A DNA stretch of 64,000 nucleotides from NCBI GenBank assembly GCA_034414575.1, contig DAOULZ010000004.1, forward strand, positions 6,417-70,416. Direction: 5' to 3'. The notes below the pieces were generated by a model. The model worked only from the letters and a program-made list of their open reading frames with translations, did not search any database and was not told the DNA's origin. Made by a program: the position numbers and the translations under genes. Below, piece after piece: positions 14,124-26,848 of the stretch (position 1 is its first letter; the number at the start of each line of letters is the position of its first letter). The stretch is from Dehalococcoidales bacterium (GTDB taxonomy: Bacteria; Chloroflexota; Dehalococcoidia; Dehalococcoidales; UBA5760).

Positions 14124-14158
14124 GTATTGTTTAATTACACCAGGCTACAGAATTTAAA

Positions 14159-14255: not shown

Positions 14256-14349
14256 TAGCATTGATCGCCACAGCCCCACCCTTTCTGATAATCATCTCAA
14301 GATCAGGGATGCTTTTTCATGCCGCGATTTTTATTCGCCGGGGGTTCAT

Positions 14350-15144
14350 TTGGTTAAAGAATGGCTGAGATCCAATAAACTGACACTGACTTTTGTGCTA
14401 CTTGGGGCCATCATTTTCCTGTTCATCATTGTGCCTCTATTCCGTATGATTTTTGCCTCCGACCCCGACATATTAAGGGAGACCCTGTTCGACCCTGAGG
14501 TAACGAAAGCTATACTACTTACCTTATGGGCAGCCCTTATCGCCACCGCAGTTGGTTTCGTACTTGGGGTACCTCTGGCTTACCTGCTGGCTCGTCATGA
14601 ATTCCGAGGCAAGAGAATAGTCGAGGGGTTAATTGATGTCCCGATAGTCGTACCCCACACTGCCGCTGGTATCGCTCTGCTCTTTGTGTTTGGTCGCAAC
14701 TTTCTCATGGGCAGGGCCTTCGACTCGGTAGGTGTCCAATTCGTTGATTCCACAGCCGGTATCGTGGTGGCTATGCTATTTGTCAGTGTTCCCTTCCTCA
14801 TAGATTCGGCTAAGGAGGGCTTTAAAAAGGTAGATGTAAGGCTAGAAAAAGTAGCTCGTACCCTAGGTGCTTCATCTTGGCAAACATTCTTCAAGGTTTC
14901 TTTTCCACTAGCCTGGAGAAGCATACTTTCGGGAAACATAATGATGTGGGCCCGTGGTATAAGCGAGTTTGGGGCAGTTATCATTCTTGCCTATCACCCC
15001 ATGATTGCCCCAACACTAATTTATGAGAGATTCGAAACCTATGGTCTCACCTACTCCCGGCCCGTGGCGGTATTACTCATTTTGATTAGCCTCATCATTT
15101 TTGTCGTCCTCAGAACCTTAGTGCAGAGGGGGGCGAAAAGATGA
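14350..15144 (+). CDS. wtpB: Molybdate/tungstate ABC transporter permease (WtpB/ModB-like)
   Basis: Multi-TM protein with the ABC permease EAA-type loop (DSAKEGFKKVDVRLEKVARTLGAS). The start is uncertain. The track start TTG 14242 lies inside the riboswitch and upstream of the SD. In-frame options are ATT 14260 (4 nt after GGAGAGG) or TTG 14350 (GGGGG 5 nt upstream). Confidence 0.8.
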   Translation: MVKEWLRSNKLTLTFVLLGAIIFLFIIVPLFRMIFASDPDILRETLFDPEVTKAILLTLWAALIATAVGFVLGVPLAYLLARHEFRGKRIVEGLIDVPIVVPHTAAGIALLFVFGRNFLMGRAFDSVGVQFVDSTAGIVVAMLFVSVPFLIDSAKEGFKKVDVRLEKVARTLGASSWQTFFKVSFPLAWRSILSGNIMMWARGISEFGAVIILAYHPMIAPTLIYERFETYGLTYSRPVAVLLILISLIIFVVLRTLVQRGAKR

Positions 15145-16187
15145 TTAAGGTAAGGAACCTGTGGGTAGACCTGGGTGACTTCGTGTTACAAAATGCCAAC
15201 CTAGATATCTCTAACGGCGAATATTTTGTAATTCTGGGACCCACCGGAGCCGGTAAGACAGTTCTGCTTGAGTCTATGGCCGGTCTTTATCCACTTAAAG
15301 AAGGGCGCATCTGGCTAAATGGCGATGAGGTTACGAGGCTCGAACCTGAAAAGCGAGGCATTAGCATCGTCTATCAAGACCAGATGCTTTTCCCTCACCT
15401 CTCCGTCAGGGACAATATCACCTTTGGCCTAAGAATTCGTAAGATGAGGCCTTCAGAAACAGAACAGACTCTGAGCTGGCTATCAGGATTATTGGAAATA
15501 CATCACCTGCTTAATCGTAAGCCAGAGACACTAAGCGGTGGTGAAAAACAAAAAGTAGCTCTGGCTCGAGCATTAAGTGTTAAGCCAAAGCTCCTCCTGC
15601 TTGATGAACCACTCAGTGCCCTTGACCCCAATAATCGCGAAAACCTACAGCGCGAGCTTCGCAAAATACATGAACAATACCGGGTCACTACGGTTCACGT
15701 TACCCACGATTTTGAAGAGGCCATTGCTCTGGCTGATCGCGTCGCTGTAATCGGAGACGGCTGCATCCAACAGATAGGTACTCCGGAGCAGATATTCCGC
15801 CAGCCCGGTTCTGAGTTCGTAGCCCGCTTCGCTATGGTGAGGAATATCTTCCGTGGGGAAGTAGTCGATGGTGAAAAGGGAGACACCTTATTTTACTTCG
15901 ATGGAACCCGCATATTTGTTGTCACCGAGCACCGTGGGAAGGGTCACGCTTCTCTTCGCCCTGAAGACATAATTGTCTCCCATGCCCCCTTCCCATCCAG
16001 TGCCCGTAATTCATTTTCGGGGATCATAACCTCCATCATCGACAAGGGTTCTACACTACTCCTTACGGTAAAGGTTCCCCCAGATTTTGTGTGCCTTATT
16101 ACCAGGAACTCCTTCGACGCTATGGGTCTATCGGTTGGCAACAAAATCTACCTGACTTTTAAGGCATCTGCCGTCAATATCTTCTAG
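15141..16187 (+). CDS. wtpC: Molybdate/tungstate ABC transporter ATP-binding protein with C-terminal TOBE domain
   Basis: Walker A GPTGAGKT, signature LSGGEKQKVALARAL, Walker B LLLLDEP. The C-terminal ~110 aa are TOBE-like. Overlaps the permease stop by 4 nt. Confidence 0.9.
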   Translation: MIKVRNLWVDLGDFVLQNANLDISNGEYFVILGPTGAGKTVLLESMAGLYPLKEGRIWLNGDEVTRLEPEKRGISIVYQDQMLFPHLSVRDNITFGLRIRKMRPSETEQTLSWLSGLLEIHHLLNRKPETLSGGEKQKVALARALSVKPKLLLLDEPLSALDPNNRENLQRELRKIHEQYRVTTVHVTHDFEEAIALADRVAVIGDGCIQQIGTPEQIFRQPGSEFVARFAMVRNIFRGEVVDGEKGDTLFYFDGTRIFVVTEHRGKGHASLRPEDIIVSHAPFPSSARNSFSGIITSIIDKGSTLLLTVKVPPDFVCLITRNSFDAMGLSVGNKIYLTFKASAVNIF

Positions 16188-16261: not shown

Positions 16262-17233
16262 ATGAAGAGATTTTCAGTTATTGGGCTTTGCTTAACCGTG
16301 AGCCTAGTATCAAGCCTAGCGGTCGGGTGTGCCCGTCAGTCGGCTCCCGAGCCTGAACTATCAGGAACGCTACATATATTTCACGCAGGAAGCCTGACCA
16401 TACCGTTTGAAGAAATAACCGAGGGTTTTAATGAGCTATATCCCGATGTGGAAGTTCTGGCTGAGGGAGCCGGCAGCGCGACTACCATTCGTAAGGTAAC
16501 CGAATTACAGAGGGAGTGTGGCGTTATCGGTTCAGCCGATTACACACTTATTCCACAGCTCATGTTCCCAGATTATGCTGACTGGTATATCATCTTCGCT
16601 ACCAACCAGATGTGTATTGTATACACCGACAGCTCTCAATCTGCCAATGAGATAAATAGCGACAACTGGTATGAGATACTCCAGAGAGAAGGCGTTACCT
16701 ACGGGCGCAGTGATCCTGACCAGGACCCGTGCGGCTACCGGACGCTGATGGTCTGGCAGCTGGCCGAGGAGCACTACAGCGCGTCCGGGTTATATGATGC
16801 CCTTTATCAAGCCGAAGGAGACGTCATGCGGCCGAAGTCCGTTGACCTGATTGCTCTTCTGGAGTCAGGCGACCTGGACTATGCTTTTGAGTACACTTCA
16901 GTAGCCTCCCAGCACGGGCTGAACTACGTAACCTTACCGCCTCAGATAAACCTGGCTGACGAAACCTATAGTGATTTCTATGCTACTGCCGTAGTAGATA
17001 TTGCGGGTACGGAGCCAGGAACTACGATAGAGCAAAAGGGTAAGGCCATCGTCTATGGGGTTACCATGCCCACCAATTCTCCTGAGCATGACCTGGGCGT
17101 AGCCTGGATTGATTATCTGCTGAGTGAAGAAGGTAATGCCATTATGGAGGCAAGCGGTCAACCTCCGGTGGTACCAGCCCAGACCAATGACCAGAGCCTA
17201 GTACCTGAGTCGCTGCAGAAATATCTTGATTAG
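16262..17233 (+). CDS. wtpA: Tungstate/molybdate-binding periplasmic lipoprotein, WtpA type
   Basis: Lipobox LAVGC. IFHAGSLTIPFEE, AGSATTIRKVTEL, ADYTLIP, NWYEIL, DPCGYRT and GDLDYAFEYTSVA match my recollection of WtpA rather than ModA (which has FAAASL). Confidence 0.75.
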   Translation: MKRFSVIGLCLTVSLVSSLAVGCARQSAPEPELSGTLHIFHAGSLTIPFEEITEGFNELYPDVEVLAEGAGSATTIRKVTELQRECGVIGSADYTLIPQLMFPDYADWYIIFATNQMCIVYTDSSQSANEINSDNWYEILQREGVTYGRSDPDQDPCGYRTLMVWQLAEEHYSASGLYDALYQAEGDVMRPKSVDLIALLESGDLDYAFEYTSVASQHGLNYVTLPPQINLADETYSDFYATAVVDIAGTEPGTTIEQKGKAIVYGVTMPTNSPEHDLGVAWIDYLLSEEGNAIMEASGQPPVVPAQTNDQSLVPESLQKYLD

Positions 17234-17413
17234 GTTAGTTGACCCCCAATAGTCAAGGTTATACAGTAGCTTACTAAGTGTGATGAGGAATCAAGCCGAC
17301 TTCTAAAACTAGATTCAAGGAATCAGACAAAAACTTTCATCATAAATTTAATCGACAGCAACGGTCTGGTAAACCGTTTCATTATTCAAGCGTAATTCTA
17401 TTTTCTACGGGTA

Positions 17414-17442
17414 TTGACAATCACTGTTAACGGGAGTATATT
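17414..17442 (+). promoter_or_regulatory. Near-consensus sigma70 promoter upstream of leader copy L
   Basis: TTGACA (17414-17419), 17 nt, TATATT (17437-17442). Confidence 0.65.
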
Positions 17443-17468
17443 CTAGTTCGCATATGAATTATGCGGAT

Positions 17469-17550
17469 GAGGGGGCGTTGAACCGCCCCCTTTAACTGGG
17501 CACTTGGATGACGGGGAGCCAATAGTGAAACCGACCTCAAGGGGTCGGTT
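17469..17550 (+). ncRNA. Unassigned structured 5' leader, copy L (candidate cis-regulatory RNA or riboswitch with terminator-like hairpin)
   Basis: 82 nt, 77/82 identical to the reverse complement of 22249-22330. Hairpins: GGGGGCG/CGCCCCC; CACUUGG[AUGACGGGGAG]CCAAUAGUG; AACCGACC-UCAA-GGGGUCGGUU followed by a U-rich tract. Then AAGGAGG and ATG 17577. Confidence 0.55.
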
Positions 17551-17576
17551 TAAATGTTTTTAAAGGAGGTAAATAT

Positions 17577-17963
17577 ATGCCTACATTTAGACGTCCAAAA
17601 CTACCTCCCAAAGGTAAGTTAGCATTAGGCTTAGCACTAGTAATATGGTGTAGTTTAGCGATTTATTTAACAAGGATTAAAATTGTCCCTTATTGGGGTG
17701 GTACGGGGGCACTTTCAGTCGTGGGTATTATTGTGGGGGTTTCTCAAATACTAGGATATAGGGATTCTAGACGTTCTATCAACAAATACGCAAAAAACTC
17801 ACAACGGGTTAGCAAAGAGCATAGAAAAAAAGACATGGGAGTAGAGTTAACAGATACAGGTATAAGAGCCAAGCGGCGATTCAGGGCACCATATGTTCCA
17901 GTAGTTCATAAGGGCGAAAAACAAAGCGAGATAAAAACCAATCGCAGCTATGGAGTGTGCTAA
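17577..17963 (+). CDS. Small 2-TM membrane protein (hypothetical)
   Basis: AAGGAGG lies 7 nt upstream of the ATG. Two hydrophobic helices (LALGLALVIWCSLAIYL and ALSVVGIIVGVSQIL). The basic C-terminal half overlaps the convergent ORF 17847..18161, so the true end is uncertain. Confidence 0.5.
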   Translation: MPTFRRPKLPPKGKLALGLALVIWCSLAIYLTRIKIVPYWGGTGALSVVGIIVGVSQILGYRDSRRSINKYAKNSQRVSKEHRKKDMGVELTDTGIRAKRRFRAPYVPVVHKGEKQSEIKTNRSYGVC

Positions 17964-18161
17964 TGTGACCAGACTATGTACAGGTTCTATTGGCCAAAAG
18001 TACTTCGATGTTACGACTGCTACAAATGCAGCAATTAGAAACGCCGTTCCGATCAAAAAGAAATTCAATCTTTGGAATAAGCGATTAAGGTCAGAATCCC
18101 GCTTTGCTGCTTCGTCCATAACTGTGGCATCTAGTCTAATTCTGCTCCATCGACTTGTCAA
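17847..18161 (-). CDS. Small 2-TM membrane protein (hypothetical)
   Basis: 104-aa ORF with a TTG start; an internal ATG giving MDEAAKRDSD... is possible. Helices FFLIGTAFLIAAFVAVV and IAAIGFYLALFFALM. Overlaps 17577..17963 by 117 nt. Confidence 0.45.
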   Translation of the reverse strand: MTSRWSRIRLDATVMDEAAKRDSDLNRLFQRLNFFLIGTAFLIAAFVAVVTSKYFWPIEPVHSLVTLAHSIAAIGFYLALFFALMNYWNIWCPESPLGSYTCIC

Positions 18162-18742
18162 TACCGCTAGATACGAAGGACTATTCTAAATAGACATTTT
18201 CAGGTAAGGGAGGTATAACCCCCTGACTGCAATTACCATTTTCTAGAATCCACTAAACATAATACGCAAGACATGCATAGTTCTATGAAGAATAGGGGGT
18301 GTCCTCATACATAGCTTCAAGCTTAAAATGGTTAGACCTCAGCCGCGCGCACACGGTCAAAAACATTTTTGTTTTTACATAACGCAAAGATTGTGTTGCT
18401 TATCTAACAGTTTTTTCGTGCGTAAAACATAGAAAAAACAAGGGCAGAAATATAACCAAAAAGCCATATTTTAGGGATATGAATGGGGTAGAAATGGGTT
18501 ATGAAGTCAGGGATTATGTGAGCGATGGGTTTAACACTGGGTTTAACATTCGTGCTTAGTTCAGGTCTCTCAGACAAGAAAAAATAACCTGGGGGGCTTC
18601 CTCGGAGCGAAAATTAGGGAAAGTGGTCAAACCACTCTCACGAAAATACTAGAAATTAGTTGGCTTTTGGCTTGCCTTCTTCAGGGCAGAATAGAGTTCT
18701 TGCCTTGTTGTGGATAGTTTCTTAATATCTTCGTCTTTTGTC

Positions 18743-19066
18743 TTAACCATCAACTAACACTTTTCCACGCTGTTTGCGAGTTTTAGGCAGCACCTGTAAA
18801 TTCAGATCCAAAGCATGGATTACCTTTAGGAAAGTACCTATTCTAATATTGAAATCACCACTCTCCAACCTAGAGATAGCGGGTTGCTTTGTCCCGATGA
18901 TCCGTGCAAGCCTCGTTTGTGTCATACGCAGTTGATTTCTACGCTCTATCAAACTCTGTATCATGTCATACTTGGGCTTTAGAGCCTCGTATTCTTTGCG
19001 AATTTCTGCGTCTTGCAGTAATTCTGCCTCAAATTCCTCATAGCTTGTAGCTTTTCTGTTTGTCAT
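18743..19066 (-). CDS. higA: HigA-like antitoxin, XRE-family HTH
   Basis: I start at ATG 19066 (AGGTG 8 nt upstream): MTNRKATSYEEFEAELLQD... HTH segment is MTQTRLARIIGTKQPAISRLESG. Lies directly downstream of the HigB/Gp49-like toxin. Confidence 0.8.
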   Translation of the reverse strand: MTNRKATSYEEFEAELLQDAEIRKEYEALKPKYDMIQSLIERRNQLRMTQTRLARIIGTKQPAISRLESGDFNIRIGTFLKVIHALDLNLQVLPKTRKQRGKVLVDG

Positions 19067-19120
19067 TCTATTAGCACCTATATGAGTTATTATTGAATAT
19101 AACATATATGTTATATCGTG

Positions 19121-19476
19121 TCAAGTGCTAAATCTCTCAATATGGTCGTTCATGCGGCGAATAGCTATCCTTATATCACCTTCGGGAATTTTGTCTCCCT
19201 TCTTTTTTTGATAGCGTGCAATATGATAAACATACGACCTGTGAAAGCAAAGAAAAGGATACGATATAAATCTGAACCATGCCGTATCCTAAGTTCTCGA
19301 ATACCCGACTTATTTATTTTTCTAACATAAGGTAAACCTAATGTAACGTTATTGATGCGTAGCAATTTGAATACATGTATGATTTCTGCTATCGCCTTTT
19401 TAGATTCCCCTAGAATGAAATCCTTAACGGGTCTATTACCATTTTCGTCTGCGTAAAAATCAACTCGCCAATCCAT
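19121..19476 (-). pseudogene. higB: HigB/Gp49-like (RelE-fold) toxin, truncated by a frameshift in an A7 run
   Basis: From ATG 19476: MDWRVDFYADENGNRPVKDFIL...IRELRIRHGSDLYRILFFAFTGRMFIILHAIKK. The frame stops at 19171. One extra A in the run at 19203-19209 would restore ...KKKKGDKIPEGDIRIAIRRMNDHIERFST*, ending at 19121. That is the family-typical KK..K.P..EI..A..R tail. Confidence 0.7.
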
Positions 19477-19701
19477 ACCATGTAATATAACACAATGGGG
19501 CAATAATGCTTCCTTTTTCCTTATTGACACCCCCTCCCATCGCACGATAATCAGTTTGTATTATTAATCAATGCCATTTCTTAATGGTTTACAACCATTT
19601 CAAAAAATCCCTGCATCCAAGCCTCATTTACGTCAATCCACCCCCCTTTTGTCTTCGGATAGTCGCACAAGAAGAGTTCACATAACGAACCCAAACAGCA
19701 T

Positions 19702-20766
19702 TCATTTCATGTCTTCAAGACCTGGACCAGGGTCTCTAATAAGTTGCATTGTCTGACAACACACACCTCCAACTCCACCTTTAAGCATTTCACTCATCTC
19801 AGTTTCGATGACTTTGACCCCCGCTCTCCTCACCCTGCTGATTGTCTCCTTCGCACCAGCATGCATTATTACCTTTCCTGGTTCAAGAATGGTCAGATTT
19901 GGCGGCATGTACAGCTTTTGTTCTTCCTCAGAAGCTACTTCAATAAGTTCGAAATTCCGTGCCCTTAGCCACCTGATTGTCTCATAGTCACAAAGTGGTG
20001 GGTATATCAATACCTTCCCAATGTCCAAGGGGGCAATAATCATATCGGGATGGAACCCGTACTTTGGCCATTGCCATTCTGAAGCCCCTACCGCTCCTGG
20101 TACATTCATAATAAGAGCCTCTTTTCCCCCAGTTCTGTAGAAAACAGGGAGAAACTGGTCTAGCCCTTCCCTGTTGTAAGATACCGAGAGTGCGGTCACC
20201 ACAACATCCTCGCAAAGGAAACGAGAGCCACCCAATTCATTTATACCTTTACCGATTATTGTTAGCAGAATTGGGCAACCATGATTAACTAACCATTTTG
20301 CCAAGACCGGTTCAGACCCCTTAGAGAATACCTGCATACCATATCTCGGAATAATTGCCCCTCCCCTAATTACCATGATATTGTCCGGGTAACACATCCA
20401 ATACATAGGTCCGTAGATACTAATCGGAGGGTCCGGGTATTCGATATAATTGACTATGACACCTTCGCCCTGCAGGATTTGAGCATAGGCATCGTGGTCT
20501 TTCTGCCACTTCTCCACACTGATAGGCTCTCCCTTGGGTATCATGCAATAAGTTGGGTCCTGTAGAAAGAAGGGGTGGATCTCGTACTCAGTTGGTCTAA
20601 CAAGTGCTACTTCCCTTAACTTACCTATGCCGGGTGCTCCCCACTTTTTGCCCCAAATTCGTTCGTATTCATCCAAATAATCGACTTTGTCCCACAGATC
20701 AACCCTAGGTGGTTTCCCCTTTTCGTAAAAGGGAATATCTTCAAACCTATATTCTTTTTCTGCCAC
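19702..20766 (-). CDS. Guanidino-group-modifying-enzyme superfamily protein (amidinotransferase/arginine-deiminase-like)
   Basis: 354 aa. GTG start with AAGGAGA upstream. The C-terminal GGVGGVCCQT is the catalytic-Cys motif (compare GGG..HC.T). HPDMIIAPLD resembles the His/Asp motif. Confidence 0.65.
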   Translation of the reverse strand: MAEKEYRFEDIPFYEKGKPPRVDLWDKVDYLDEYERIWGKKWGAPGIGKLREVALVRPTEYEIHPFFLQDPTYCMIPKGEPISVEKWQKDHDAYAQILQGEGVIVNYIEYPDPPISIYGPMYWMCYPDNIMVIRGGAIIPRYGMQVFSKGSEPVLAKWLVNHGCPILLTIIGKGINELGGSRFLCEDVVVTALSVSYNREGLDQFLPVFYRTGGKEALIMNVPGAVGASEWQWPKYGFHPDMIIAPLDIGKVLIYPPLCDYETIRWLRARNFELIEVASEEEQKLYMPPNLTILEPGKVIMHAGAKETISRVRRAGVKVIETEMSEMLKGGVGGVCCQTMQLIRDPGPGLEDMK

Positions 20767-20862
20767 AGTAATTTCTCCTTATTCTGTTATTCGATCATCA
20801 CAATTCTTATCAAATTAGGACACCCTTAGAGCTTCACTTACGCACCTCATTTCTGTAGGTCC

Positions 20863-21999
20863 CTAATACAATGGTCGCAATTCCTCCTCATCAGTTACCA
20901 GAGGAACCGTTATCTCACCAGTGTAAATAAGCTGTTTAACCTCTTCTACTTTCGCCTTGATTTCATCTGGTACGTTTGTTAGCGGGGCAATAGGTGGCCA
21001 ATCCTCTTGTTCCAACAGCGTGGTACCTAGCTTAATGCCAAATGAGTAATGTGCTCGATGAATAGTCCCATCTATTAGTGTCTCCACTGCGTGCTCAGCA
21101 AATCGTGGATGGTAATTGAGGAAACTGGTTAGTGTCCTATCTGGAGCTAACTCACGCTGGTCCAGGACCTCTCCTATGAAATACACGCCCGCAGACTCTT
21201 GAGCAGCCTTAGCCACACCAAACCCACCAGCATCAGCGTAATGTGCTATTACGTCGGCATCTAGATCGATCATGGCTTTAGTAGCCTCATAGGCCTTTTC
21301 TATATCGATAAAACTTCCTGTGTATAGGACCATCAGTTCTGCTTCTGGATTAATGTATTCCAGCCCCAGCTTGTAGCCATACCCGTATCTAATGATCTCA
21401 GGATAAGCCTGACCGGCGACGTAGCCCACTTTATTTGTCTTAGTAATCATACCTGCGACTATTCCCGCTAGAAATCCGCCGTCTTGGTCTCTCATTTCAT
21501 AACCAACAATGTTATCATACGGAAAATCGCGTTCAAAGTCCTCCTCAGTTGGGCACCACATTCCAAACCAGACCTCCGGACTTTCGGGTACAGCTGTCAT
21601 AGCTGCCTCGTAGAAACATGTATCCATAAGAACAAGATCGTTTGCATCCGCTGATGACCTTAGAGCATTAAGAGTCTCCGGATAGTCAACTGCGTCACCA
21701 AAGACGGTCTCAACTTCAGGAAATTTCTCCTCGATGTGGAGATAAGCCATGTAATTACTCTCCCCCCACGACTTGTCGGTCATTGAGCTACCCGTAAGTA
21801 TGGCTACCTTGTATTGCGTTGGTGTTGGTGTTGTCGGCTCCGTCGGCTGTGTTGGTGTTGTCGGCTCCGTCGGCTGTGTTGGTGTTGTCGGTGTCGTCGG
21901 CTCTGTTGGTGTTGTCGGCTCCACCGGTGCAGCACATCCGCCAAGAATCAAAGACGATACTACAGCGATCGTTAATATTGGTACAATGTATTTGTTCAT
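20863..21999 (-). CDS. BMP-family (PnrA/Med-like) ABC substrate-binding lipoprotein with Pro/Thr-rich linker
   Basis: Lipobox LGGC, then a (PTEPTTPTQ)n linker, then a BMP-like fold (KVAILTGSSMTDKSW...GYVAGQAYPEIIRYGYGY). No permease or ATPase genes are adjacent. Confidence 0.7.
   Translation of the reverse strand: MNKYIVPILTIAVVSSLILGGCAAPVEPTTPTEPTTPTTPTQPTEPTTPTQPTEPTTPTPTQYKVAILTGSSMTDKSWGESNYMAYLHIEEKFPEVETVFGDAVDYPETLNALRSSADANDLVLMDTCFYEAAMTAVPESPEVWFGMWCPTEEDFERDFPYDNIVGYEMRDQDGGFLAGIVAGMITKTNKVGYVAGQAYPEIIRYGYGYKLGLEYINPEAELMVLYTGSFIDIEKAYEATKAMIDLDADVIAHYADAGGFGVAKAAQESAGVYFIGEVLDQRELAPDRTLTSFLNYHPRFAEHAVETLIDGTIHRAHYSFGIKLGTTLLEQEDWPPIAPLTNVPDEIKAKVEEVKQLIYTGEITVPLVTDEEELRPLY
21815..21922. 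repeat. 27-bp tandem repeat (~4 units) encoding the Pro/Thr linker
   Basis: The unit gttggtgttgtcggctccgtcggctgt is identical at 21824-21850 and 21851-21877. A third unit (21878-21904) has 3 changes, and partial units flank the array. Confidence 0.9.
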
Positions 22000-22248
22000 T
22001 ACTTACTCCCTCCCCCTTCTATAATATTCTCACCAAGCTCAACCTTTCTGCTCCATAGGCACTCCCGTTGATCTACTTCAGAGCCTTCTTATTAAGCTTG
22101 AGAGTCTTAGAGTCTATTTTCTTCGTTATGTAAGGAAACTTCATGAATTTCCCCTCGTCAAACACTAGTAATTTGCACAAAGCCGGAACGGCATCAATCT
22201 ATGGCCATACTCCTTGTATATCTTCTCGTACTACTCATAAATATAAAC

Positions 22249-22330
22249 AACCGACCCCTTGAGGTCGGTTTCACTATTGGCTCCCCGTCATCCAAGTGCC
22301 CAGTTAAGGGTGGCGGCTCAATACCCCCTC
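22249..22330 (-). ncRNA. Unassigned structured 5' leader, copy R (inverted copy of 17469-17550)
   Basis: The reverse complement matches copy L at 77/82 positions, with the 3' 59 nt identical. Lies 38 nt downstream of the minus-strand promoter and ~250 nt upstream of the BMP lipoprotein start (21999). Confidence 0.55.
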
Positions 22331-22374
22331 TTTACTTCAAGCACCGTATAATAACGTATGAAATTGCAGGTCAT

Positions 22375-22403
22375 AACATACTACACAAGCACGCTGTTGT
22401 CAA
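22375..22403 (-). promoter_or_regulatory. Near-consensus sigma70 promoter upstream of leader copy R
   Basis: On the minus strand: TTGACA (22403..22398), 17 nt, TATGTT (22380..22375). Confidence 0.65.
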
Positions 22404-22510
22404 CCCCCAAATACGAAGGATTGTTTTTTGAAATGTGTCTCCCAAATAGGGATGGTTAGACCCCTAACCCACGCATACGATAAAAACATTTCCGTAATCC
22501 CGTAATCCTC

Positions 22511-22819
22511 TTATTTTTTAAGTTCGATATGAACAGTGTCGACTACGATTAACATATTCAGGCCGTAGAATACCTCTGGTTCGCATTCTAATCGTCCAGT
22601 CCTTCTACTCCGTATCCCATCTTTCTCAATTATACAATCCTGCTGGGTAATCTCGACGAAATCCCGATAGGGAATTGAACTGAATCCAACTTCCGTCAAA
22701 AACTCGCTTACCTTTTTCTGCAGTTGCTCGCCAGCCAGAATTCGCTCTTCTTCCTCCTTCTTCCGTTGCCGATGCCTTCTGACGGCTTCAGTTCTGTCCT
22801 CTTTGTTTTTGTACGGCAT
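22511..22819 (-). CDS. Hypothetical protein (basic N-terminus)
   Basis: 102-aa ORF inside the island. No family recognised. Confidence 0.45.
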   Translation of the reverse strand: MPYKNKEDRTEAVRRHRQRKKEEEERILAGEQLQKKVSEFLTEVGFSSIPYRDFVEITQQDCIIEKDGIRSRRTGRLECEPEVFYGLNMLIVVDTVHIELKK

Positions 22820-22912
22820 ATCATTACTCCAATAAGGTCATCCCTAGTGGTTTAGTACTTATGAGAAAAAATCCCTTCATCCAAGACCTTTTTTCGTCAA
22901 TCCGAGCCTTGT

Positions 22913-23107
22913 TTATCCCGAACCAGCACACCGTTTTAGGAAGTCCAAGACCTCACTTGTGAGATAGACTCTTATTCTTTGTCCGAGATAGACGCAAGGG
23001 AATTCTTTCTCTTGACGTAAGCGATCTAATTGCTTTCGATTTACGTCTAATAGCTCCATTATTGCCTTTTCGCTCCATACCTGCTGTTCCAGCGGCTGAT
23101 TTTCCAT
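22913..23107 (-). CDS. Excisionase/AlpA-like helix-turn-helix protein
   Basis: I start at ATG 23107 (M42 of the track ORF). This removes the overlap with the divergent gene at 23136. AIMELLDVNRKQLDRLRQEKEFPCVYLGQRIRVY is the MerR/Xis-type HTH pattern. Confidence 0.6.
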   Translation of the reverse strand: MENQPLEQQVWSEKAIMELLDVNRKQLDRLRQEKEFPCVYLGQRIRVYLTSEVLDFLKRCAGSG

Positions 23108-23135
23108 AACATTATAAAGAAGTAAGGACAAAAAG

Positions 23136-23933
23136 ATGGGAAAAGGGCCCAATATAACCCCCGAGATTAGAAGCTCGATAGCGGCGATATATCTTAAGAA
23201 CAGAGCTGTAGGGCCAACCGAAGCCCGCAAAGAGTTGCTTAAGGAAATGAAGCAAAGGGGCCTTGACAGAAACTTTGGCCCTAACTACCCCAATGTCAGT
23301 ACAGTGTCAGTCTATCTAAAGAAATTCAAGGGAAATGATGAAGAGCGCTCGGTTGAATCAAGAAGGCTTGATGAACCCTGGTCTCTCGGATCTCTAATAG
23401 AGCACCCTATACCGTATGAGGCGTTACCAACAGTAATGTCAATTCGTAGAAAGTGTGCAATCCAAGGAGGTGACTACGACCTCACCATTCGAGAGGCGCT
23501 GTGGATTGGACGGTTGCACAAAATAATCGAGTTATATCAACCGGGTCACATTCCCCCGGACGTACGACATATACTAATGTCTGGAAAATGGAAAGATCCA
23601 GAAGGTGCTTGGCCTATCTCGAAAATACAGCCCAGCCTACTGACGGAAGACTTAATATTGGACTGTGCGTACTACTACTCAAAAATGGAATTGCTTTCTG
23701 AAATTGAGGGAGAATCGTTCGACAGCGGAGAGCTTGATACAGCCGTGATGGACGATGTCTACGAATTCTATGGCGAACGGAGACGAGATGCGATCTCACT
23801 GATTGCAGAGCGGTATGGCGCTGATGAGAATAAGCTCATGAAACTCAATCTATCAATACAGGAGACCGAGTACGCCGCTATGCGATTAACTGGATACCAT
23901 AAGGAGGCAGATAATGAGAGGCCACATACGTAA
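23136..23933 (+). CDS. Hypothetical protein translationally coupled to the integrase
   Basis: 265-aa ORF whose 3' end overlaps the integrase start by 20 nt. The N-terminus is HTH-like (ITPEIRSSIAAIYLKN...). No family recognised. Confidence 0.55.
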   Translation: MGKGPNITPEIRSSIAAIYLKNRAVGPTEARKELLKEMKQRGLDRNFGPNYPNVSTVSVYLKKFKGNDEERSVESRRLDEPWSLGSLIEHPIPYEALPTVMSIRRKCAIQGGDYDLTIREALWIGRLHKIIELYQPGHIPPDVRHILMSGKWKDPEGAWPISKIQPSLLTEDLILDCAYYYSKMELLSEIEGESFDSGELDTAVMDDVYEFYGERRRDAISLIAERYGADENKLMKLNLSIQETEYAAMRLTGYHKEADNERPHT

Positions 23934-25089
23934 ACGGGGTAAGAATAGCTATTCAATCAAAGTCAGTTTAGGGAAGGATGCTACCACAGGTAAGTATAAG
24001 TCCCAGTGGGTATCCGTCAAAGGCACCAAAAAGGATGCTGAAAAGCACCTGGCCGAATTATTACACCAGCTTGATAACGGCACTTTCATGAAGCCGGGTA
24101 AAACGACACTTGGGGAATACCTGGAGAAGTGGTTGAGAGACTACGCTTGGCCTAGTCTAGCCCCCAGGACGGTTGAGGGTTATGAGTCTATCATTCGCTG
24201 CCATCTCATCCCGGCCCTGGGGAGTATTCCCCTAACTCAATTAAGGCCAGAGCATTTGCAGCGTTACTACTCAGAGAAGTTGTCAGGAGGACGCTATGAC
24301 GGAAAGGGGTCACTCGGCCAGACATCGGTATTACACCATCATACCTGTTTGCATCGTGCTCTCAAGATGGCGCTCAGGTGGGGACTGATGAACCGTAACC
24401 CTGCCGATGCGGTTACTCCCCCACATCCCCAGCGTTCTGAAATGCACACCATGACTGAAGATGATCTGACTAGGTTTCTTGAGGCTGCCAAAGCTACGCC
24501 CTATTACGTGCTATTCTATCAGGCACTATTCACGGGAATGAGGAGAAGTGAACTATTAGCCCTACGATGGTGTGACGTTGATTTACTCCTATGCCAGGTT
24601 CACGTCACCCGCACTATTCACCAACTAAGGACTGGTGAGTTGGTTATTAGAGCACCAAAGTCAGTCAAAGGACGCCGCTTGGTTTCCCTGTCTCCCTCCG
24701 CCGCTCTGTTACTTCAAGAGCATCGAGACAAGCAAGCAGCACATCGGGTTATATTGGGCATACCACTAGAAGAAGATGACCTGATATTCAGCACACTGGA
24801 CGGCAGGCCACTACGACCCAATACGGTTACACGGGCATGGTCTATGTTGGCCGCCCGTTGTGGACTTAAGGGCATACGTCTTCATGATGCTCGCCATACC
24901 CATGCCAGTTTAATGCTCAAGCAGGGTGTGCACCCCAAGATAGTGCAGGAACGACTAGGCCATGCTACAATAGCAGTAACGCTTGATACCTATAGCCACA
25001 TTTCTCCCGGACTTCAGCAAGCGGCAGCGGAAGGCTTTGACAGAATGGTGCTTCCTAGGCGTGAAAAAGAAGCTGTTGAAAACCTTTAG
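23914..25089 (+). CDS. int: Tyrosine recombinase / phage-type integrase
   Basis: AAGGAGG precedes the ATG. N-terminus MRGHIRKRGKNSYSIKV. Catalytic region GMRRSELLAL...HDARHTHASLML...LGHATIAVTLDTYSH (R...HxxR...H...Y). Confidence 0.92.
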   Translation: MRGHIRKRGKNSYSIKVSLGKDATTGKYKSQWVSVKGTKKDAEKHLAELLHQLDNGTFMKPGKTTLGEYLEKWLRDYAWPSLAPRTVEGYESIIRCHLIPALGSIPLTQLRPEHLQRYYSEKLSGGRYDGKGSLGQTSVLHHHTCLHRALKMALRWGLMNRNPADAVTPPHPQRSEMHTMTEDDLTRFLEAAKATPYYVLFYQALFTGMRRSELLALRWCDVDLLLCQVHVTRTIHQLRTGELVIRAPKSVKGRRLVSLSPSAALLLQEHRDKQAAHRVILGIPLEEDDLIFSTLDGRPLRPNTVTRAWSMLAARCGLKGIRLHDARHTHASLMLKQGVHPKIVQERLGHATIAVTLDTYSHISPGLQQAAAEGFDRMVLPRREKEAVENL

Positions 25090-25116
25090 TAGCAAATTAG
25101 TAGCAATTTTATGATT

Positions 25117-25140
25117 ATGCCATTTTGGTAATGGCATTTT
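25117..25140 (+). terminator. Intrinsic terminator after int
   Basis: ATGCCATT TTGGT AATGGCAT forms an 8-bp stem, followed by TTTTG. Confidence 0.65.
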
Positions 25141-25147
25141 GAAGCTA

Positions 25148-25237
25148 GGAGGGGTGTCCGAGTGGTCTATGGTGACGGTCTTGAAAACCGTTGTCCCCGC
25201 AAGGGGACCGTGGGTTCGAATCCCACCCCCTCCGCCA
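25148..25237 (+). tRNA. tRNA-Ser (anticodon UGA)
   Basis: Acceptor GGAGGGG/CCCCTCC. Anticodon arm ACGGT-CTTGAAA-ACCGT. Long variable arm GTCCCCGCAAGGGGAC. T-arm GTGGG-TTCGAAT-CCCAC. CCA is encoded. Confidence 0.95.
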
Positions 25238-26848
25238 TCAGTGTTCCTCAAGAGACACCTCATTCAGCACGGGGAGACCCATGGCATTAAGCTCGTAGCC
25301 ATTAACGTAGGGCTTAACCAGCACGTAATTCTGGCCAAACCACAATGGCAGGCAGGCGGCATCGCTAACCAGCTTCTGCTCCGCCTGCTGATACAAAACC
25401 AAGCTTGCTTCTCTGTCTGGCTCCACATTAGCCCTATCCAGTAAGGAATCCACCTCAGGGTTAGCATAGCCACCGTAATTATTCTCGGCACCGCTGCGGA
25501 ATAAGATATCAAGAAAATCCTGCGGGTGGGGATAATCGGCAATCCACCCCGAAAAATACATCTCATCCAACTCCTCATCAAGATGATAAAGGTACCTCTC
25601 CGGCTCCAGCTGTCTCACCTCCACCTCAACACCCAGGTTCTCCCGCCACTCGTAGATAATCGCCTCGAGGTCGCTTGAGATGAGCCCGCCATAGCCGGCA
25701 TCAGTAATCTTAATCGGGGGCAGGTTGGCGACATCGCCATACTTCGAATTACTAATCAGCTCCCGGGCCAGCTCTAGGTCATATTCCAAGCCCGCTAAAT
25801 TCTCATTATAGCCCGGCATACCCGGGGGCAGGATACCACCCGCTGGCTGCACCATATCCCTGAAGATTAAGGAAGCTAGCTTGTCCTTATTAACTGCATG
25901 GCAGAAGGCACGCCGAATATTCTCGTCATCAAATGGCGGCTTCTCGGTGTTAAAGCCAATATAGAAGAAGCTGAGCTCCGGGTAAACCCTCAAGTCCTGA
26001 TAAAAGGGACCCCGCTCATCGGTAACCCGGTCAATATAGTAGGTGTAGACCCCGGTAACATCAATTTCCCCCGTCTCGTAAAGATTCATGGGCACACCGC
26101 CGTATAACTGAAAGACCACTGAATCCACCCGGGCGACCTCACCGTAGTAGAGCTCGTTCCTCTCCAGAATAAGCAGGCTACTCTCCTGCCACTCACCAAG
26201 CCGAAACGGGCCGGTACCGTTGGGGTAGCGCCACCACTCCCCCCCTGAAGAAACATTATCCCGGTCAACTACAAAGGCAGTGGGGTAGCTCATCTTGGCC
26301 AGAAAGTAAGACTTGGGGGCGTCTATGGTTACCTCAAGGGCGTAATCATCAATAACCCTGACGCCGCTAATCCCCGCTGCCTCCCCAGCCAGCACCTCCT
26401 TCACCCCGACAATATCACCCAGATAGGCCTCAGCCGTTTTCGAGCCGGTAGCCGGGGCGCAGGCCCTCTCCCAGGAATACTTGAAATCCTCAGCTCTAAC
26501 CTCGCGGCCATCGTGAAATTTGACATTTTTTCGGAGATAAAAGGTATAGGTCCGGCCATCCTCACTTAATTCAAACCTCTCGGCGATATCCCCTACCGGT
26601 GCCAAGTTATCATCCAGCCTGACCAAGCCGCTGAAAACCTGCATGATGTATTCGTGGGAGGTCGCATCACCAGAAACACCCGGGTCTAGGGTATGGGGAT
26701 CAACGCCGTAAAGATTAAGCACCCCCCCACCTTCGGGGGTAGAGGTGGGCGGTGAGGGGACTATCTGGGTGCCACACTGACAACCAGCCAGAAGCAGGCT
26801 AGATAGTAATAGTGCTGAGAGAACTATGTATAAGATTCTTTTATTCAT
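25238..26848 (-). CDS. Peptide/nickel-type ABC transporter substrate-binding lipoprotein (family 5)
   Basis: 536 aa. Lipobox LLAGC. Family-5 SBP pattern (YTFYLRKNVKFHDG, WFGQNYVLVKPYV). The stop codon directly abuts the tRNA-Ser 3' end. Confidence 0.85.
   Translation of the reverse strand: MNKRILYIVLSALLLSSLLLAGCQCGTQIVPSPPTSTPEGGGVLNLYGVDPHTLDPGVSGDATSHEYIMQVFSGLVRLDDNLAPVGDIAERFELSEDGRTYTFYLRKNVKFHDGREVRAEDFKYSWERACAPATGSKTAEAYLGDIVGVKEVLAGEAAGISGVRVIDDYALEVTIDAPKSYFLAKMSYPTAFVVDRDNVSSGGEWWRYPNGTGPFRLGEWQESSLLILERNELYYGEVARVDSVVFQLYGGVPMNLYETGEIDVTGVYTYYIDRVTDERGPFYQDLRVYPELSFFYIGFNTEKPPFDDENIRRAFCHAVNKDKLASLIFRDMVQPAGGILPPGMPGYNENLAGLEYDLELARELISNSKYGDVANLPPIKITDAGYGGLISSDLEAIIYEWRENLGVEVEVRQLEPERYLYHLDEELDEMYFSGWIADYPHPQDFLDILFRSGAENNYGGYANPEVDSLLDRANVEPDREASLVLYQQAEQKLVSDAACLPLWFGQNYVLVKPYVNGYELNAMGLPVLNEVSLEEH

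What the first reader, a model, noticed from the sequence alone, without database searches (positions are those of the whole stretch)
17414..22403. Two inverted copies of an unassigned 82-nt structured leader, each behind a near-consensus promoter (candidate new cis-regulatory RNA or riboswitch)
Seen directly:
- 17469-17550 (+) and 22249-22330 (read on the minus strand) are the same 82-nt element, 77/82 identical.
- The 3' 59 nt (TTAACTGGGCACTTGGATGACGGGGAGCCAATAGTGAAACCGACCTCAAGGGGTCGGTT) are 100% identical. All 5 substitutions fall in the first 23 nt.
- Each copy lies 20-40 nt downstream of a strong promoter in the same orientation: TTGACA-17-TATATT at 17414-17442, and TTGACA-17-TATGTT at 22403..22375.
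- Each copy precedes genes in that orientation. Copy L is followed by AAGGAGG and ATG 17577 (a small 2-TM protein). Copy R is followed, after ~250 nt, by an orphan BMP-family lipoprotein and a guanidino-group-modifying-superfamily enzyme.
- On paper it folds into a G/C hairpin, a second hairpin CACUUGG[AUGACGGGGAG]CCAAUAGUG, and a terminator-like hairpin with a U-rich tail.

I compared it from memory with the fluoride, guanidine-I/II/III, ZTP, purine, glutamine, preQ1 and c-di-GMP motifs, and it fits none of them. One RNA module in front of two unrelated transcription units is the classic signature of a ligand-responsive leader. Any ligand proposal (a guanidino compound or a nucleoside, from the downstream genes) is speculation.
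Basis: partly seen in the sequence, partly recalled or inferred. Interest (0 to 1): 0.78.

Follow-up and report, generated by a model that had tools for sequence, protein, structure and literature searches.

The report
Pair of known c-di-GMP-II riboswitches

Summary
Bases 17469-17550 (+) and 22249-22330 (-) form an 82-nt inverted repeat, 94% matched. Each copy has a near-consensus promoter upstream and a terminator-like hairpin downstream.

The "unassigned" label is wrong. Both copies match Rfam RF01786 (c-di-GMP-II riboswitch aptamer) end to end and above the curated threshold: 59.0 and 56.0 bits against 53.5.

About 160 distinct homologs from Dehalococcoidia/Chloroflexota MAGs and metagenomes support the class-II fold:
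- All 8 P3 pairs and 2 of 3 P2 pairs show compensatory changes.
- The k-turn, the pseudoknot and the AACCG tail are conserved.
- In 155 of 158 homologs, an intrinsic terminator uses aptamer nucleotides 71-76 as its 5' arm. This points to an ON switch by anti-termination.

Two ligand-pocket positions differ from the canonical consensus (A13 to G, C68 to A). Both changes are shared across the whole clade. They are not the changes that define the Rfam GAG/GCG variants, which carry A69 to G.

Copy R is a typical member. Copy L is an outlier: it has a weakened P3 and the most stable competing hairpin of 157 homologs, so it may be impaired.

Verdict: new members of a known class, of low interest. 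A roughly 10% chance remains that the clade senses a different ligand.

The parts
17414..17442 (+). Sigma-70-type promoter-like site of unit L (TTGACA-17-TATATT)
   Evidence: 11/12 consensus matches. An RpoD-type sigma factor is encoded in the window at 36965-38410. The transcription start is inferred to lie about 7 nt downstream and was not measured.
17462..17545 (+). c-di-GMP-II riboswitch aptamer, copy L.
- P1: 17468-17472 with 17535-17539.
- P2: 17474-17476 with 17518-17520.
- k-turn: bulge 17477-17479, G.A/A.G at 17480-17481 with 17516-17517.
- P3: 17483-17490 with 17507-17514.
- Pseudoknot: 17498-17504 with 17524-17528 and 17531-17532.
   Evidence: Rfam RF01786, 59.0 bits (gathering score 53.5), E 1.5e-10, model positions 1-84 of 84. 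The helices are supported by covariation in homologs. In this copy only 5 of 8 P3 pairs can form.
17469..17492 (+). Copy-L-specific perfect 9-bp G/C-rich hairpin (17469-17477 with 17484-17492). It competes with P1/P2/P3.
   Evidence: Predicted MFE of copy L. It is the most stable 5' hairpin of 157 distinct homologs (-18.0 kcal/mol) and the only one with 9/9 pairs. The hairpin is not conserved and shows no covariation.
17528..17561 (+). Intrinsic terminator of unit L: stem-loop 17528-17551, then the U-rich tail AAAUGUUUUU. Its 5' arm is made of aptamer nucleotides 68-77 (pocket A69/A70, pseudoknot C71-C72, P1 3' strand).
   Evidence: The same overlap occurs in 155 of 158 homologs.
17577..17963 (+). 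First ORF after copy L: 128 aa with two hydrophobic segments, preceded by AAGGAGG at 17563-17569.
   Evidence: No Pfam or NCBIfam family matches. The only hit among 5.8 billion proteins is the protein itself. It is an ORFan, so coding status is uncertain.
22375..22403 (-). Sigma-70-type promoter-like site of unit R (TTGACA-17-TATGTT)
   Evidence: 10/12 consensus matches.
22254..22337 (-). c-di-GMP-II riboswitch aptamer, copy R.
- P1: 22330-22327 with 22264-22261.
- P2: 22325-22323 with 22281-22279.
- P3: 22316-22309 with 22292-22285.
- Pseudoknot: 22301-22295 with 22275-22271 and 22268-22267.
   Evidence: Rfam RF01786, 56.0 bits (gathering score 53.5), E 1e-9, model positions 1-84 of 84. 6 of 8 P3 pairs can form. 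Its folding statistics fall within the normal range of the homologs.
22236..22270 (-). Intrinsic terminator of unit R: stem-loop 22270-22249, then the tail GUUUAUAUUUAU. It overlaps the aptamer 3' tail.
20863..21999 (-). First gene after copy R: a Bmp/PnrA-family substrate-binding lipoprotein with a Pro/Thr-rich linker.
   Evidence: Pfam Bmp, E 9.4e-39. PDB relatives include basic membrane protein A, E 2.9e-27. The N-terminus reads ...LILGGCAAP.
19702..20766 (-). Second gene of unit R: an enzyme of the guanidino-group-modifying superfamily and a full-length homolog of 2-nitroimidazole nitrohydrolase.
   Evidence: PDB 9azg_A, E 8.1e-57, residues 5-353 aligned to 22-380. Pfam ADI matches the C-terminal part only.

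Best explanation
Each unit has the same layout: a sigma-70-type promoter, a 5' leader carrying a class-II c-di-GMP riboswitch aptamer, an overlapping intrinsic terminator, and then the gene or genes. The aptamer has P1, P2, a kink-turn and P3, and the P3 loop UGGGCACU forms a pseudoknot with the 3' tail AGUGAAACCG.

Proposed mechanism:
- Without ligand, the 3' tail (nt 68-77 of the element: AAACCGACCU) pairs with the downstream GGGGUCGGUUU. This forms the terminator, and transcription stops in the U-rich tract at about 17552-17561 (L) or 22248-22236 (R).
- When c-di-GMP is high, it binds in the pocket formed by A69/A70, the pseudoknot and the P1/P2 junction. The same tail is then locked into the aptamer, the terminator cannot form, and RNA polymerase reads through. 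The element is therefore an ON switch.

Targets:
- Unit R switches on a Bmp-family lipoprotein and a 2-nitroimidazole-nitrohydrolase-like enzyme.
- Unit L would switch on an ORFan small membrane protein.

What is shown: membership of the family by covariance-model score; covariation for P2, P3 and the pseudoknot; a conserved overlap of aptamer and terminator.

What is inferred: the ligand, the ON direction, and activity in vivo.

Sub-claim at about 50%: copy L is impaired or has a much higher threshold. Its derived changes (17488 A>C, 17491 C>T) break a P3 pair and complete a very stable competing hairpin.
For: - Rfam RF01786 matches both copies full-length and above the gathering score (59.0 and 56.0 against 53.5).
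- 19 of the 20 homologous genome loci scanned also yield hits classified as RF01786, at 57-71 bits.
- On a 33-sequence alignment, the class-II structure is 84.5% paired, against 27-46% for slid controls. All 8 P3 pairs and 2 of 3 P2 pairs show compensatory changes, and pseudoknot pair 44-64 changes U-A to C-G.
- RNAalifold independently recovers P2, P3 and the terminator.
- Invariant in all 33 sequences: A21, G56 and A57 of the k-turn (G20 is at least 90% conserved), U37, G38, G39, C41, A42, C43, A61, G65-G67, A69, A70, C71, C72 and G73. Of the 13 nucleotides listed as contacting c-di-GMP in PDB 3Q3Z (PMC7288161), 9 are identical here: U37, G39, A61 and A69-A74. The A14-U60 pair is G-C, as in the Rfam consensus. 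Only positions 13 and 68 depart from the consensus.
- A terminator hairpin uses nt 71-76 in 155 of 158 distinct homologs.
- The first downstream ORFs are heterogeneous and enriched for signal-peptide or lipoprotein N-termini: 82 of 140 against a 25% background by a crude heuristic. c-di-GMP riboswitches are described as controlling such surface and adherence genes rather than c-di-GMP metabolic genes (PMC6366702).
- In Clostridium difficile, all four class-II riboswitches are terminator-based ON switches (PMC6366702).
- Many contigs carry 2-3 copies, as expected for a second-messenger regulon.
Against: - The scores are only 2.5-5.5 bits above the gathering threshold.
- Two positions that are conserved in the canonical consensus and lie near the ligand differ. 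A13 is G (17473 and 22326), and C68 is A (17528 and 22271), which makes a G40.A68 mismatch next to the pocket.
- P3 has 3 mismatches in copy L and 2 in copy R.
- Nearest-neighbour folding favours non-aptamer folds: aptamer-domain MFE is -28.8 against -6.9 kcal/mol for P1/P2/P3 in L, and -19.9 against -5.4 in R. These energies ignore the pseudoknot, the k-turn and the ligand.
- P1 is short: 5 bp in L, 4 bp in R, and 2-4 bp in most relatives.
- No GGDEF, EAL or HD-GYP gene lies in the 64-kb window. Only one GGDEF-containing ORF was found in about 0.9 Mb flanking the homologs. Production of c-di-GMP by this organism is therefore not shown.
- The gene after copy L has no homolog anywhere.
- Ligand binding was not tested.
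Confidence: 0.8

Rival explanations
1. Same fold but a different ligand. The Chloroflexota clade carries A68 always, G13 in about 75% of copies, and G40.A68 in about 30%. It could be a specificity variant of c-di-GMP-II that senses another dinucleotide, such as 3'3'-cGAMP, c-di-AMP or pGpG. This would parallel GEMM-I variants that sense c-AMP-GMP, and the orphan GAG/GCG variants.
For: - Positions 13 and 68 are among the nucleotides listed as contacting the ligand in 3Q3Z. They are upper-case (conserved) in the Rfam consensus, yet differ in both copies.
- In 126 metagenomic copies collected with N at positions 40 and 68, position 68 is never C.
- Both copies probably also pass the gathering score of a clan CL00127 variant family. 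Two lower-scoring clan matches were suppressed in the region, and the closely similar L023 scores 44.6 against 40 on RF03169.
- GGDEF genes are scarce in the sampled flanks.
- c-di-GMP-I variants that sense c-AMP-GMP are documented (PMC5473149).
Against: - The canonical model outscores the variant models in every case but one.
- A69, A70, A61, U37, G39 and C71-A74 are unchanged.
- Position 13 is variable inside the clade: G 94, A 27, U 3. It is therefore unlikely to be a specificity determinant.
- The 40-68 pair simply covaries: G-C in the canonical family, U-A in 84 of 126 clade copies and in the GAG consensus. This suggests a structural pair, not a base-specific ligand contact.
- The regulon looks like a c-di-GMP regulon.
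Confidence: 0.1
2. Copy L no longer works as a switch. It would be a decaying or locked duplicate inside a horizontally acquired island. Its 5' half folds into a very stable hairpin, the aptamer never forms, and the terminator acts constitutively. The ORF behind it may not be a real gene. This reading is compatible with copy R being functional.
For: - L has the most stable 5' hairpin of 157 homologs (-18.0 kcal/mol) and is the only one with 9/9 alternative pairs. Its P3 forms 5 of 8 pairs, against a median of 7.
- The L-specific bases 17488 C and 17491 T are A and C in the nearest relatives and in copy R. Both changes add pairs to the competing hairpin, and 17488 breaks a P3 A-U pair that is paired in 31 of 33 aligned homologs.
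- The downstream ORF is an ORFan and overlaps an antisense ORFan.
- In C. difficile, only 11 of 16 predicted c-di-GMP riboswitches are functional (PMC6366702).
Against: - L still scores higher than R on RF01786 (59.0 against 56.0).
- All pocket, k-turn and pseudoknot nucleotides, the terminator and a strong Shine-Dalgarno sequence plus ATG are intact.
- Nearest-neighbour energies omit tertiary and ligand energy and co-transcriptional kinetics.
- The polarity of only 2-3 substitutions is inferred from a handful of outgroups.
Confidence: 0.45
3. One reading: a previously undescribed structured leader or riboswitch class.
For: None remains beyond the clade-specific deviations at positions 13 and 68.
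Against: - Full-length Rfam hits above the gathering score for both copies and for 19 of 20 relatives scanned.
- The secondary structure, k-turn, pseudoknot and conserved tail of the class are all present.
Confidence: 0.02
4. The two arms are the terminal inverted repeats of a mobile element (an IS or MITE-like element, or the ends of the island) and have no regulatory role.
For: - The copies are inverted and bracket a low-GC segment (0.39-0.45 against 0.49-0.54 in the flanks).
- The segment also holds a toxin-antitoxin pair, with an integrase next to tRNA-Ser beyond copy R.
Against: - Similarity between the window and about 150 homologous loci is confined to the roughly 85-105-nt element itself. 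The flanks are unrelated.
- Most loci hold a single copy, oriented toward a downstream ORF and followed by a terminator.
- Substitutions are compensatory within RNA helices.
- The integrase and tRNA lie outside the repeat pair (23914-25237), so the arms do not delimit the island.
Confidence: 0.01

Closest known systems
c-di-GMP-II riboswitch (Rfam RF01786; Lee et al. 2010 Science; crystal structure PDB 3Q3Z, Smith et al. 2011 PNAS)
   Same: - The covariance model matches end to end above the gathering score.
- Both have P1, P2, a k-turn, and P3 with a 16-nt loop containing UGGGCAC.
- The loop forms a pseudoknot with the 3' tail.
- The AACCG(A/G)CC tail is invariant, and A61, A69 and A70 are kept.
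- An overlapping terminator gives ON logic, as in the C. difficile class-II switches.
   Different: - G replaces the conserved A13, and A replaces the conserved C68. In the window this gives G40.A68 in place of the G-C pair.
- P1 is very short.
- The host is Chloroflexota/Dehalococcoidia. The class is best studied in Clostridia, which I state from my own knowledge. The papers I could read did not cover its phylogenetic range.
- The primary papers (PMC4538695, PMC3093532) were not available in the library.
c-di-GMP-II-GAG and -GCG variant riboswitches (Rfam RF03169 and its sister family, clan CL00127; Weinberg et al. 2017 PNAS; ligand unknown)
   Same: - Same fold and same clan.
- The GAG consensus also has A at position 68.
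- A clan variant model also passes its gathering score on the window copies.
   Different: - The GAG consensus tail is GGCGAGACCG and the loop is CGGuCGCC. The canonical forms are gGUGCAACCG and UGGGCAC. Relative to canonical, this means U66C, C68A and A69G, with compensating A42G and G40U.
- The window copies share only C68A. They keep A69, U66 and A42.
- The canonical model scores higher.
- How the three-letter names map to positions is my inference from the two consensus lines. The paper (PMC5358364) was not available.
Cdi-2-4 (pilA1) and the other class-II riboswitches of Clostridium difficile
   Same: Terminator-based ON switches upstream of genes for surface or secreted proteins, with several copies per genome (PMC6366702).
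   Different: The targets here are a Bmp lipoprotein with a nitrohydrolase-like enzyme, and an ORFan. They are not pilins or sortase-anchored adhesins. No experimental data exist for this clade.
c-di-GMP-I (GEMM-I) riboswitch
   Same: Same presumed ligand and the same kind of regulon.
   Different: The fold is unrelated (PMC7288161). No Rfam hit to it was found in the window.

Membership tests
c-di-GMP-II riboswitch (RF01786) | The covariance-model score reaches the curated gathering score over the full model. | tested here: met
   L scores 59.0 bits and R 56.0 bits against 53.5, both over model positions 1-84 of 84.
c-di-GMP-II riboswitch (RF01786) | P2 and P3 helices joined by a kink-turn (3-nt bulge, then tandem G.A/A.G). 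| tested here: met
   - P2 is GGC/GCC in L and GGU/GCC in R.
- The bulge is GUU in L and AUU in R, followed by GA facing GA.
- A21, G56 and A57 are invariant and G20 is at least 90% conserved in 33 homologs.
- P2 shows compensatory changes at 2 of 3 pairs and P3 at 8 of 8, and RNAalifold recovers both.
- Within the window copies themselves, P3 forms only 5 of 8 (L) and 6 of 8 (R) pairs.
c-di-GMP-II riboswitch (RF01786) | A pseudoknot between the P3 loop (GGGCAC) and the 3' tail (GUGC ... CC). | tested here: met
   - C41-G67, A42-U66, C43-G65, U44-A64, G38-C72 and G39-C71 can all form.
- Pair 44-64 changes U-A to C-G in 2 homologs.
- Between families, 42-66 changes A-U to G-C and 40-68 changes G-C to U-A.
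- Exception: pair 40-68 is a G.A mismatch in both window copies.
c-di-GMP-II riboswitch (RF01786) | The canonical identity of the nucleotides lining the ligand pocket in 3Q3Z (A13, A14-U60, U37, G39, A61, C68, A69, A70, C71, C72, G73, A74). | tested here: inconclusive
   - 9 of the 13 listed positions are identical to 3Q3Z: U37, G39, A61 and A69-A74.
- The 14-60 pair is G-C, as in the Rfam consensus.
- Position 13 is G and position 68 is A, where the consensus has conserved A and C.
- Both changes are clade-wide.
- The mapping of crystal numbering onto the sequence is my inference from the conserved motifs.
c-di-GMP-II riboswitch (RF01786) | Binds c-di-GMP and changes gene expression in response. 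| not testable with these tools
   Requires binding and transcription assays.
c-di-GMP-II riboswitch (RF01786) | An expression platform that is mutually exclusive with the aptamer. | tested here: met
   The terminator 5' arm is aptamer nt 68-77 in both copies. The same holds in 155 of 158 homologs.
c-di-GMP-II-GAG / -GCG variants (RF03169 and sister family) | G at position 69 (tail ...GAGACCG or ...GCGACCG). In GAG, the pseudoknot is also re-paired (U40-A68, G42-C66). | tested here: not met
   - The window tail is GUGAAACCG, so A69, U66 and A42 are kept and only A68 is shared.
- The canonical model wins the clan competition.
Terminal inverted repeats of a mobile element | Copies occur as paired ends around mobility genes, with homology extending into the element. 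| tested here: not met
   Homology to about 150 loci is limited to the RNA element. Most loci hold a single copy, oriented toward a downstream ORF.

The most novel reading that the evidence does not exclude
The Dehalococcoidia/Chloroflexota clade of class-II aptamers may be a specificity variant that senses a signalling dinucleotide other than c-di-GMP.

The clade always has A68 and mostly G13. It splits into a G40.A68 subtype, which includes both window copies, and a U40-A68 subtype. The two subtypes can sit in tandem in one leader (L047). One or both subtypes could have an altered ligand, in which case tandem units would act as two-input gates.
Probability: 0.1. Interest if true: 0.6.

Novelty: new member of a known kind. 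Interest (0 to 1): 0.2.

Why it matters
As it stands, this is an annotation result. Any Rfam scan would label both elements, so the claim of a candidate new riboswitch should be dropped.

Some modest value remains:
- It shows that class-II c-di-GMP riboswitches are abundant and multi-copy in uncultured Dehalococcoidia/Chloroflexota from sediments and wetlands. They sit mostly in front of genes for secreted proteins, lipoproteins and solute-binding proteins. This implies a c-di-GMP-controlled surface regulon in a poorly studied phylum.
- The clade carries systematic changes at two pocket-proximal positions. These would be worth one binding experiment.
- Copy L is a natural example of a riboswitch copy whose few derived substitutions all stabilise a competing hairpin.

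Tried and rejected
- The primary papers were not held in the library: Lee 2010, Smith 2011 and Weinberg 2017, tried by DOI, PMC id and PubMed id. Binding-site numbering therefore comes from a review table plus my own mapping. The meaning of 'GAG' was deduced from the Rfam consensus lines.
- The Rfam tool hides lower-scoring clan matches. I could only infer that a variant family also passes on the window copies. I saw the GAG consensus through locus L023.
- Exact look-ups of window proteins largely failed. They did not find the Bmp protein, the RACo-like protein or GyrA, and so did not name the source genome. Only the 128-aa ORF was found, on a 4.3-kb Logan contig that breaks inside the repeat. 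Taxonomy therefore rests on GyrA homologs.
- The 5' G/C hairpin was tested as a conserved element and rejected: 69.7% paired against 68.7% in shuffles, with 120 of 500 shuffles at least as high.
- Terminal repeats of a mobile element were rejected.
- No third or degenerate copy was found in the window: Rfam at E <= 0.1 over the whole window and a regex scan.
- No att-like direct repeat of at least 16 nt delimits the island.
- Searches for GGDEF, EAL, HD-GYP and PilZ motifs in the window found nothing credible.
- Homolog searches for the 128-aa ORF and the antisense 90-aa ORF found nothing.
- A literature search for c-di-GMP-II in Chloroflexota or Dehalococcoidia found nothing specific.

Full report
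**1. The observation**

The repeat is real. The repeat finder reports a single inverted pair, 17469-17550 and 22249-22330, 82 nt and 94% complementary. Reading both strands confirms three points:
- The 3' 59 nt are identical.
- The five differences lie in the 5' 23 nt, at L coordinates 17476, 17477, 17482, 17488 and 17491.
- Each copy is preceded by a near-consensus promoter-like site in the same orientation.

The promoter-like sites are TTGACA-17-TATATT at 17414-17442 and TTGACA-17-TATGTT at 22403-22375. Each copy is followed by a terminator-like hairpin, at 17528-17551 and 22270-22249.

**2. What it is**

A scan of the whole window against Rfam 15 at gathering thresholds labels both copies as RF01786, the c-di-GMP-II riboswitch aptamer:
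- Copy L: 17462-17545 (+), 59.0 bits.
- Copy R: 22254-22337 (-), 56.0 bits.
- The gathering score is 53.5, both matches cover model positions 1-84 of 84, and the E-values are 1e-10 and 1e-9.

No other family matches, and no third copy appears in the window at E <= 0.1.

**3. Independent support from relatives**

I ran two collection scans.
- A pattern for the 3' half, scanned over 185,579 species genomes, gave 50 loci. About 33 of these are true homologs with exactly the window's spacing. Nearly all come from Dehalococcoidia or Chloroflexia MAGs.
- A second pattern, with N at positions 40 and 68, was scanned over metagenome contigs.

Similarity between the window and these loci is confined to the element itself, about 85-105 nt. 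The flanks are unrelated. Of the 20 genome loci scanned with Rfam, 19 yielded hits classified as RF01786, at 57-71 bits.

On a 33-sequence alignment (A2), the class-II structure holds up:
- It is 84.5% paired, against 27-46% when the 3' partners are slid.
- All 8 P3 pairs and 2 of 3 P2 pairs show compensatory double changes.
- Pseudoknot pair 44-64 switches from U-A to C-G in two sequences.

RNAalifold, with no prior, predicts P2, P3 and the terminator.

**4. Anatomy in crystal numbering**

If 17461 is counted as nucleotide 1, the numbering coincides with that of PDB 3Q3Z. This mapping is my inference from the conserved motifs.

| Feature | Nucleotides |
|---|---|
| P1 | 8-12 with 75-79 |
| Position 13 | G13 |
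| P2 | 14-16 with 58-60 |
| k-turn | bulge 17-19; G20.A57 and A21.G56 |
| P3 | 23-30 with 47-54 |
| P3 loop | 31-46, containing U37 GGGCAC U44 |
| Tail | A61 ... G65 U66 G67 A68 A69 A70 C71 C72 G73 A74 C75 C76 |

A review lists the nucleotides that contact c-di-GMP in 3Q3Z as A13, A14, U37, G39, U60, A61, C68, A69, A70, C71, C72, G73 and A74 (PMC7288161).
- Nine are identical here: U37, G39, A61 and A69-A74.
- The 14-60 pair is G-C, as in the Rfam consensus.
- Two differ from the conserved consensus letters. Position 13 is G and position 68 is A, and the latter turns the G40-C68 pair into G.A.

**5. Are these the orphan GAG/GCG variants?**

Two lower-scoring matches to families of the same clan (CL00127) also pass their own gathering scores in this region. 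Through locus L023 I could see the RF03169 (c-di-GMP-II-GAG) consensus:

| Family | P3 loop | 3' tail |
|---|---|---|
| RF03169 (GAG) | CGGuCGCC | UGGCGAGACCG |
| RF01786 (canonical) | UGGGCAC | gGUGCAACCG |

The variant therefore differs from canonical by U66C, C68A and A69G, with compensating A42G and G40U. The window copies share only C68A and keep A69, U66 and A42. They are neither GAG nor GCG.

Inside the clade, position 68 is always A, in 126 of 126 copies collected without bias at that position. Position 40 is U in 84 copies, giving a Watson-Crick U-A pair. It is G in 38 copies, as in the window. Position 13 is G in 94, A in 27 and U in 3. Second copies in L047 and L025 show the U40-A68 form directly.

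My reading is that 40-68 is a structural pair that covaries: G-C, then U-A, with G.A tolerated. Position 13 is relaxed in this clade. A change of ligand is not excluded, but it is the less likely reading, at about 10%.

**6. Mechanism**

The terminator's 5' arm is aptamer nucleotides 68-77. This stretch includes the pocket adenines, the pseudoknot cytidines and the 3' strand of P1, so the aptamer and the terminator exclude each other. This overlap is conserved in 155 of 158 distinct homologs, and the window copies have ordinary stems and U-rich tails. The logic is that ligand-bound RNA reads through, which makes an ON switch. This matches the four class-II riboswitches of C. difficile (PMC6366702). 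The ligand and the direction of switching are inferred, not measured.

**7. What is regulated**

Unit R controls two genes:
- A Bmp/PnrA-family lipoprotein (Pfam E 9e-39; PDB relatives).
- A full-length homolog of 2-nitroimidazole nitrohydrolase (9azg, E 8e-57).

Unit L precedes a 128-aa ORF with two hydrophobic segments. Its only match among 5.8 billion proteins is the protein itself.

Across homologs, the first downstream ORFs are heterogeneous. They include SnoaL-like proteins, beta-helix/NosD proteins, several solute-binding proteins, LRR/InlB-like repeats, a response regulator, a GNAT and a collagen-repeat protein. By a crude heuristic, 82 of 140 begin with a signal-peptide-like segment, against 25% of background ORFs. 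Sixteen other contigs carry 2-3 copies. This is the profile of a second-messenger regulon. It gives no support to a guanidino-compound or nucleoside ligand.

**8. Copy L is an outlier**

Among 157 distinct homologs, copy L has the most stable 5' hairpin (-18.0 kcal/mol, 9 of 9 pairs, 17469-17477 with 17484-17492). Only 5 of 8 P3 pairs can form in it, and copy R is mid-range on both measures.

Relative to copy R and the nearest relatives, L's derived bases are 17488 C and 17491 T. Both add pairs to this competing hairpin. 17488 also breaks a P3 A-U pair that is paired in 31 of 33 aligned homologs.

The cause may be selection for a higher threshold, or a quasi-palindrome 'correction' by template switching. 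Either is my speculation. The result is the same: L may be impaired. In C. difficile, only 11 of 16 predicted c-di-GMP riboswitches respond.

**9. Context**

The window is chromosomal DNA of an uncultured Chloroflexota bacterium.
- It encodes GyrA, EF-G, DnaG, RpoD, LysRS, PPDK and a RACo-type activase.
- Its GyrA is 100% identical to a protein on a 135-kb NCBI contig. It is 85% identical to a 'Chloroflexi bacterium' GyrA and 79% to a 'Dehalococcoidales bacterium' GyrA.

Both riboswitch units lie in a low-GC stretch: 0.39-0.45 between about 17 and 23.5 kb, against 0.49-0.54 outside. The stretch also holds a HigB/HigA-like pair. A tyrosine recombinase lies next to tRNA-Ser. The units probably arrived on an integrated island.

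No GGDEF, EAL or HD-GYP gene lies in the window. One REC-GGDEF-HATPase-HD_5 ORF sits beside a clade riboswitch in L075.

**10. Verdict**

These are new members of a known kind, and the interest is low. The residual novelty is the clade-specific pocket variation and the odd state of copy L.

Noticed in passing
window 13957-14075 and 14149-14268 (+): Two tandem Moco/tungsten-cofactor riboswitch aptamers (RF01055, 82.7 and 83.7 bits). Both lack the P3 stem of the model (positions about 59-75 are deleted). They lie upstream of an ABC transporter: permease 14242-15144, ATPase with TOBE domain 15141-16187, and SBP_bac_11 binding protein 16262-17233. From my own knowledge, P3-less Moco RNAs have been proposed to sense the tungsten cofactor. 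The second aptamer overlaps the mechanically called TTG start at 14242.
   Followed up: partly
window ~17300-25240: Probable integrated island. GC is 0.39-0.45 against 0.49-0.54 in the flanks. A tyrosine recombinase (23914-25089, +) lies directly beside tRNA-Ser(tga) (25148-25237, +). A weak HTH_17 (excisionase-like) ORF lies at 22913-23230 (-). No att-like direct repeat of at least 16 nt was found.
   Followed up: partly
window 18743-19105 (-) and 19171-19545 (-): A HigA-like HTH_3 antitoxin and a Gp49/HigB (RelE/ParE-family) toxin pair. It lies between the two riboswitch units and has its own promoter-like site at 19124-19096.
   Followed up: partly
window 18133-18362 (-) compared with 22375-22486 (-): A third promoter-like site, TTGACA-17-TAGACT (18161-18133, -). 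The DNA upstream of it resembles the DNA upstream of copy R's promoter: 18163-18185 with 22403-22425, and 18328-18362 with 22452-22486. No riboswitch follows it, only an ORFan 90-aa ORF with two hydrophobic segments (18119-17847). That ORF is antisense to the 3' part of the 128-aa ORF.
   Followed up: partly
window 19702-20766 (-): The 'ADI-superfamily' enzyme is a full-length homolog of 2-nitroimidazole (azomycin) nitrohydrolase (PDB 9azg/9b01, E about 1e-56). It is paired with an orphan Bmp-family binding lipoprotein that has no adjacent ABC permease or ATPase.
   Followed up: partly
window 21795-21927: Tandem 27-nt repeats (also 9- and 18-nt sub-periods) encode the Pro/Thr-rich linker (PTEPTTPT...) of the Bmp lipoprotein. 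A public short-read contig of this locus appears to break here and inside the riboswitch repeat.
   Followed up: no
L047 722-805 and 891-974; L111 (three copies within 7.3 kb); L025 1610-1693 and 3618-3701: Relatives carry several class-II riboswitches per contig. In L047, two complete aptamer-terminator units sit in tandem in one leader. The first is the G40.A68 type and the second the U40-A68 type.
   Followed up: partly
L075 8870-11452 (-): A stop-to-stop ORF with Response_reg, a partial GGDEF, HATPase_c and HD_5 domains. It lies about 400 nt from a clade-type riboswitch at 11889-11928 (+) and is divergently oriented. It is the only GGDEF hit in about 0.9 Mb of flanking DNA.
   Followed up: partly
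window 25183-25234 (-): A sub-threshold Rfam hit to Plastid-psbl-rps4 (41 bits against a gathering score of 68), antisense to tRNA-Ser. It is almost certainly spurious.
   Followed up: no
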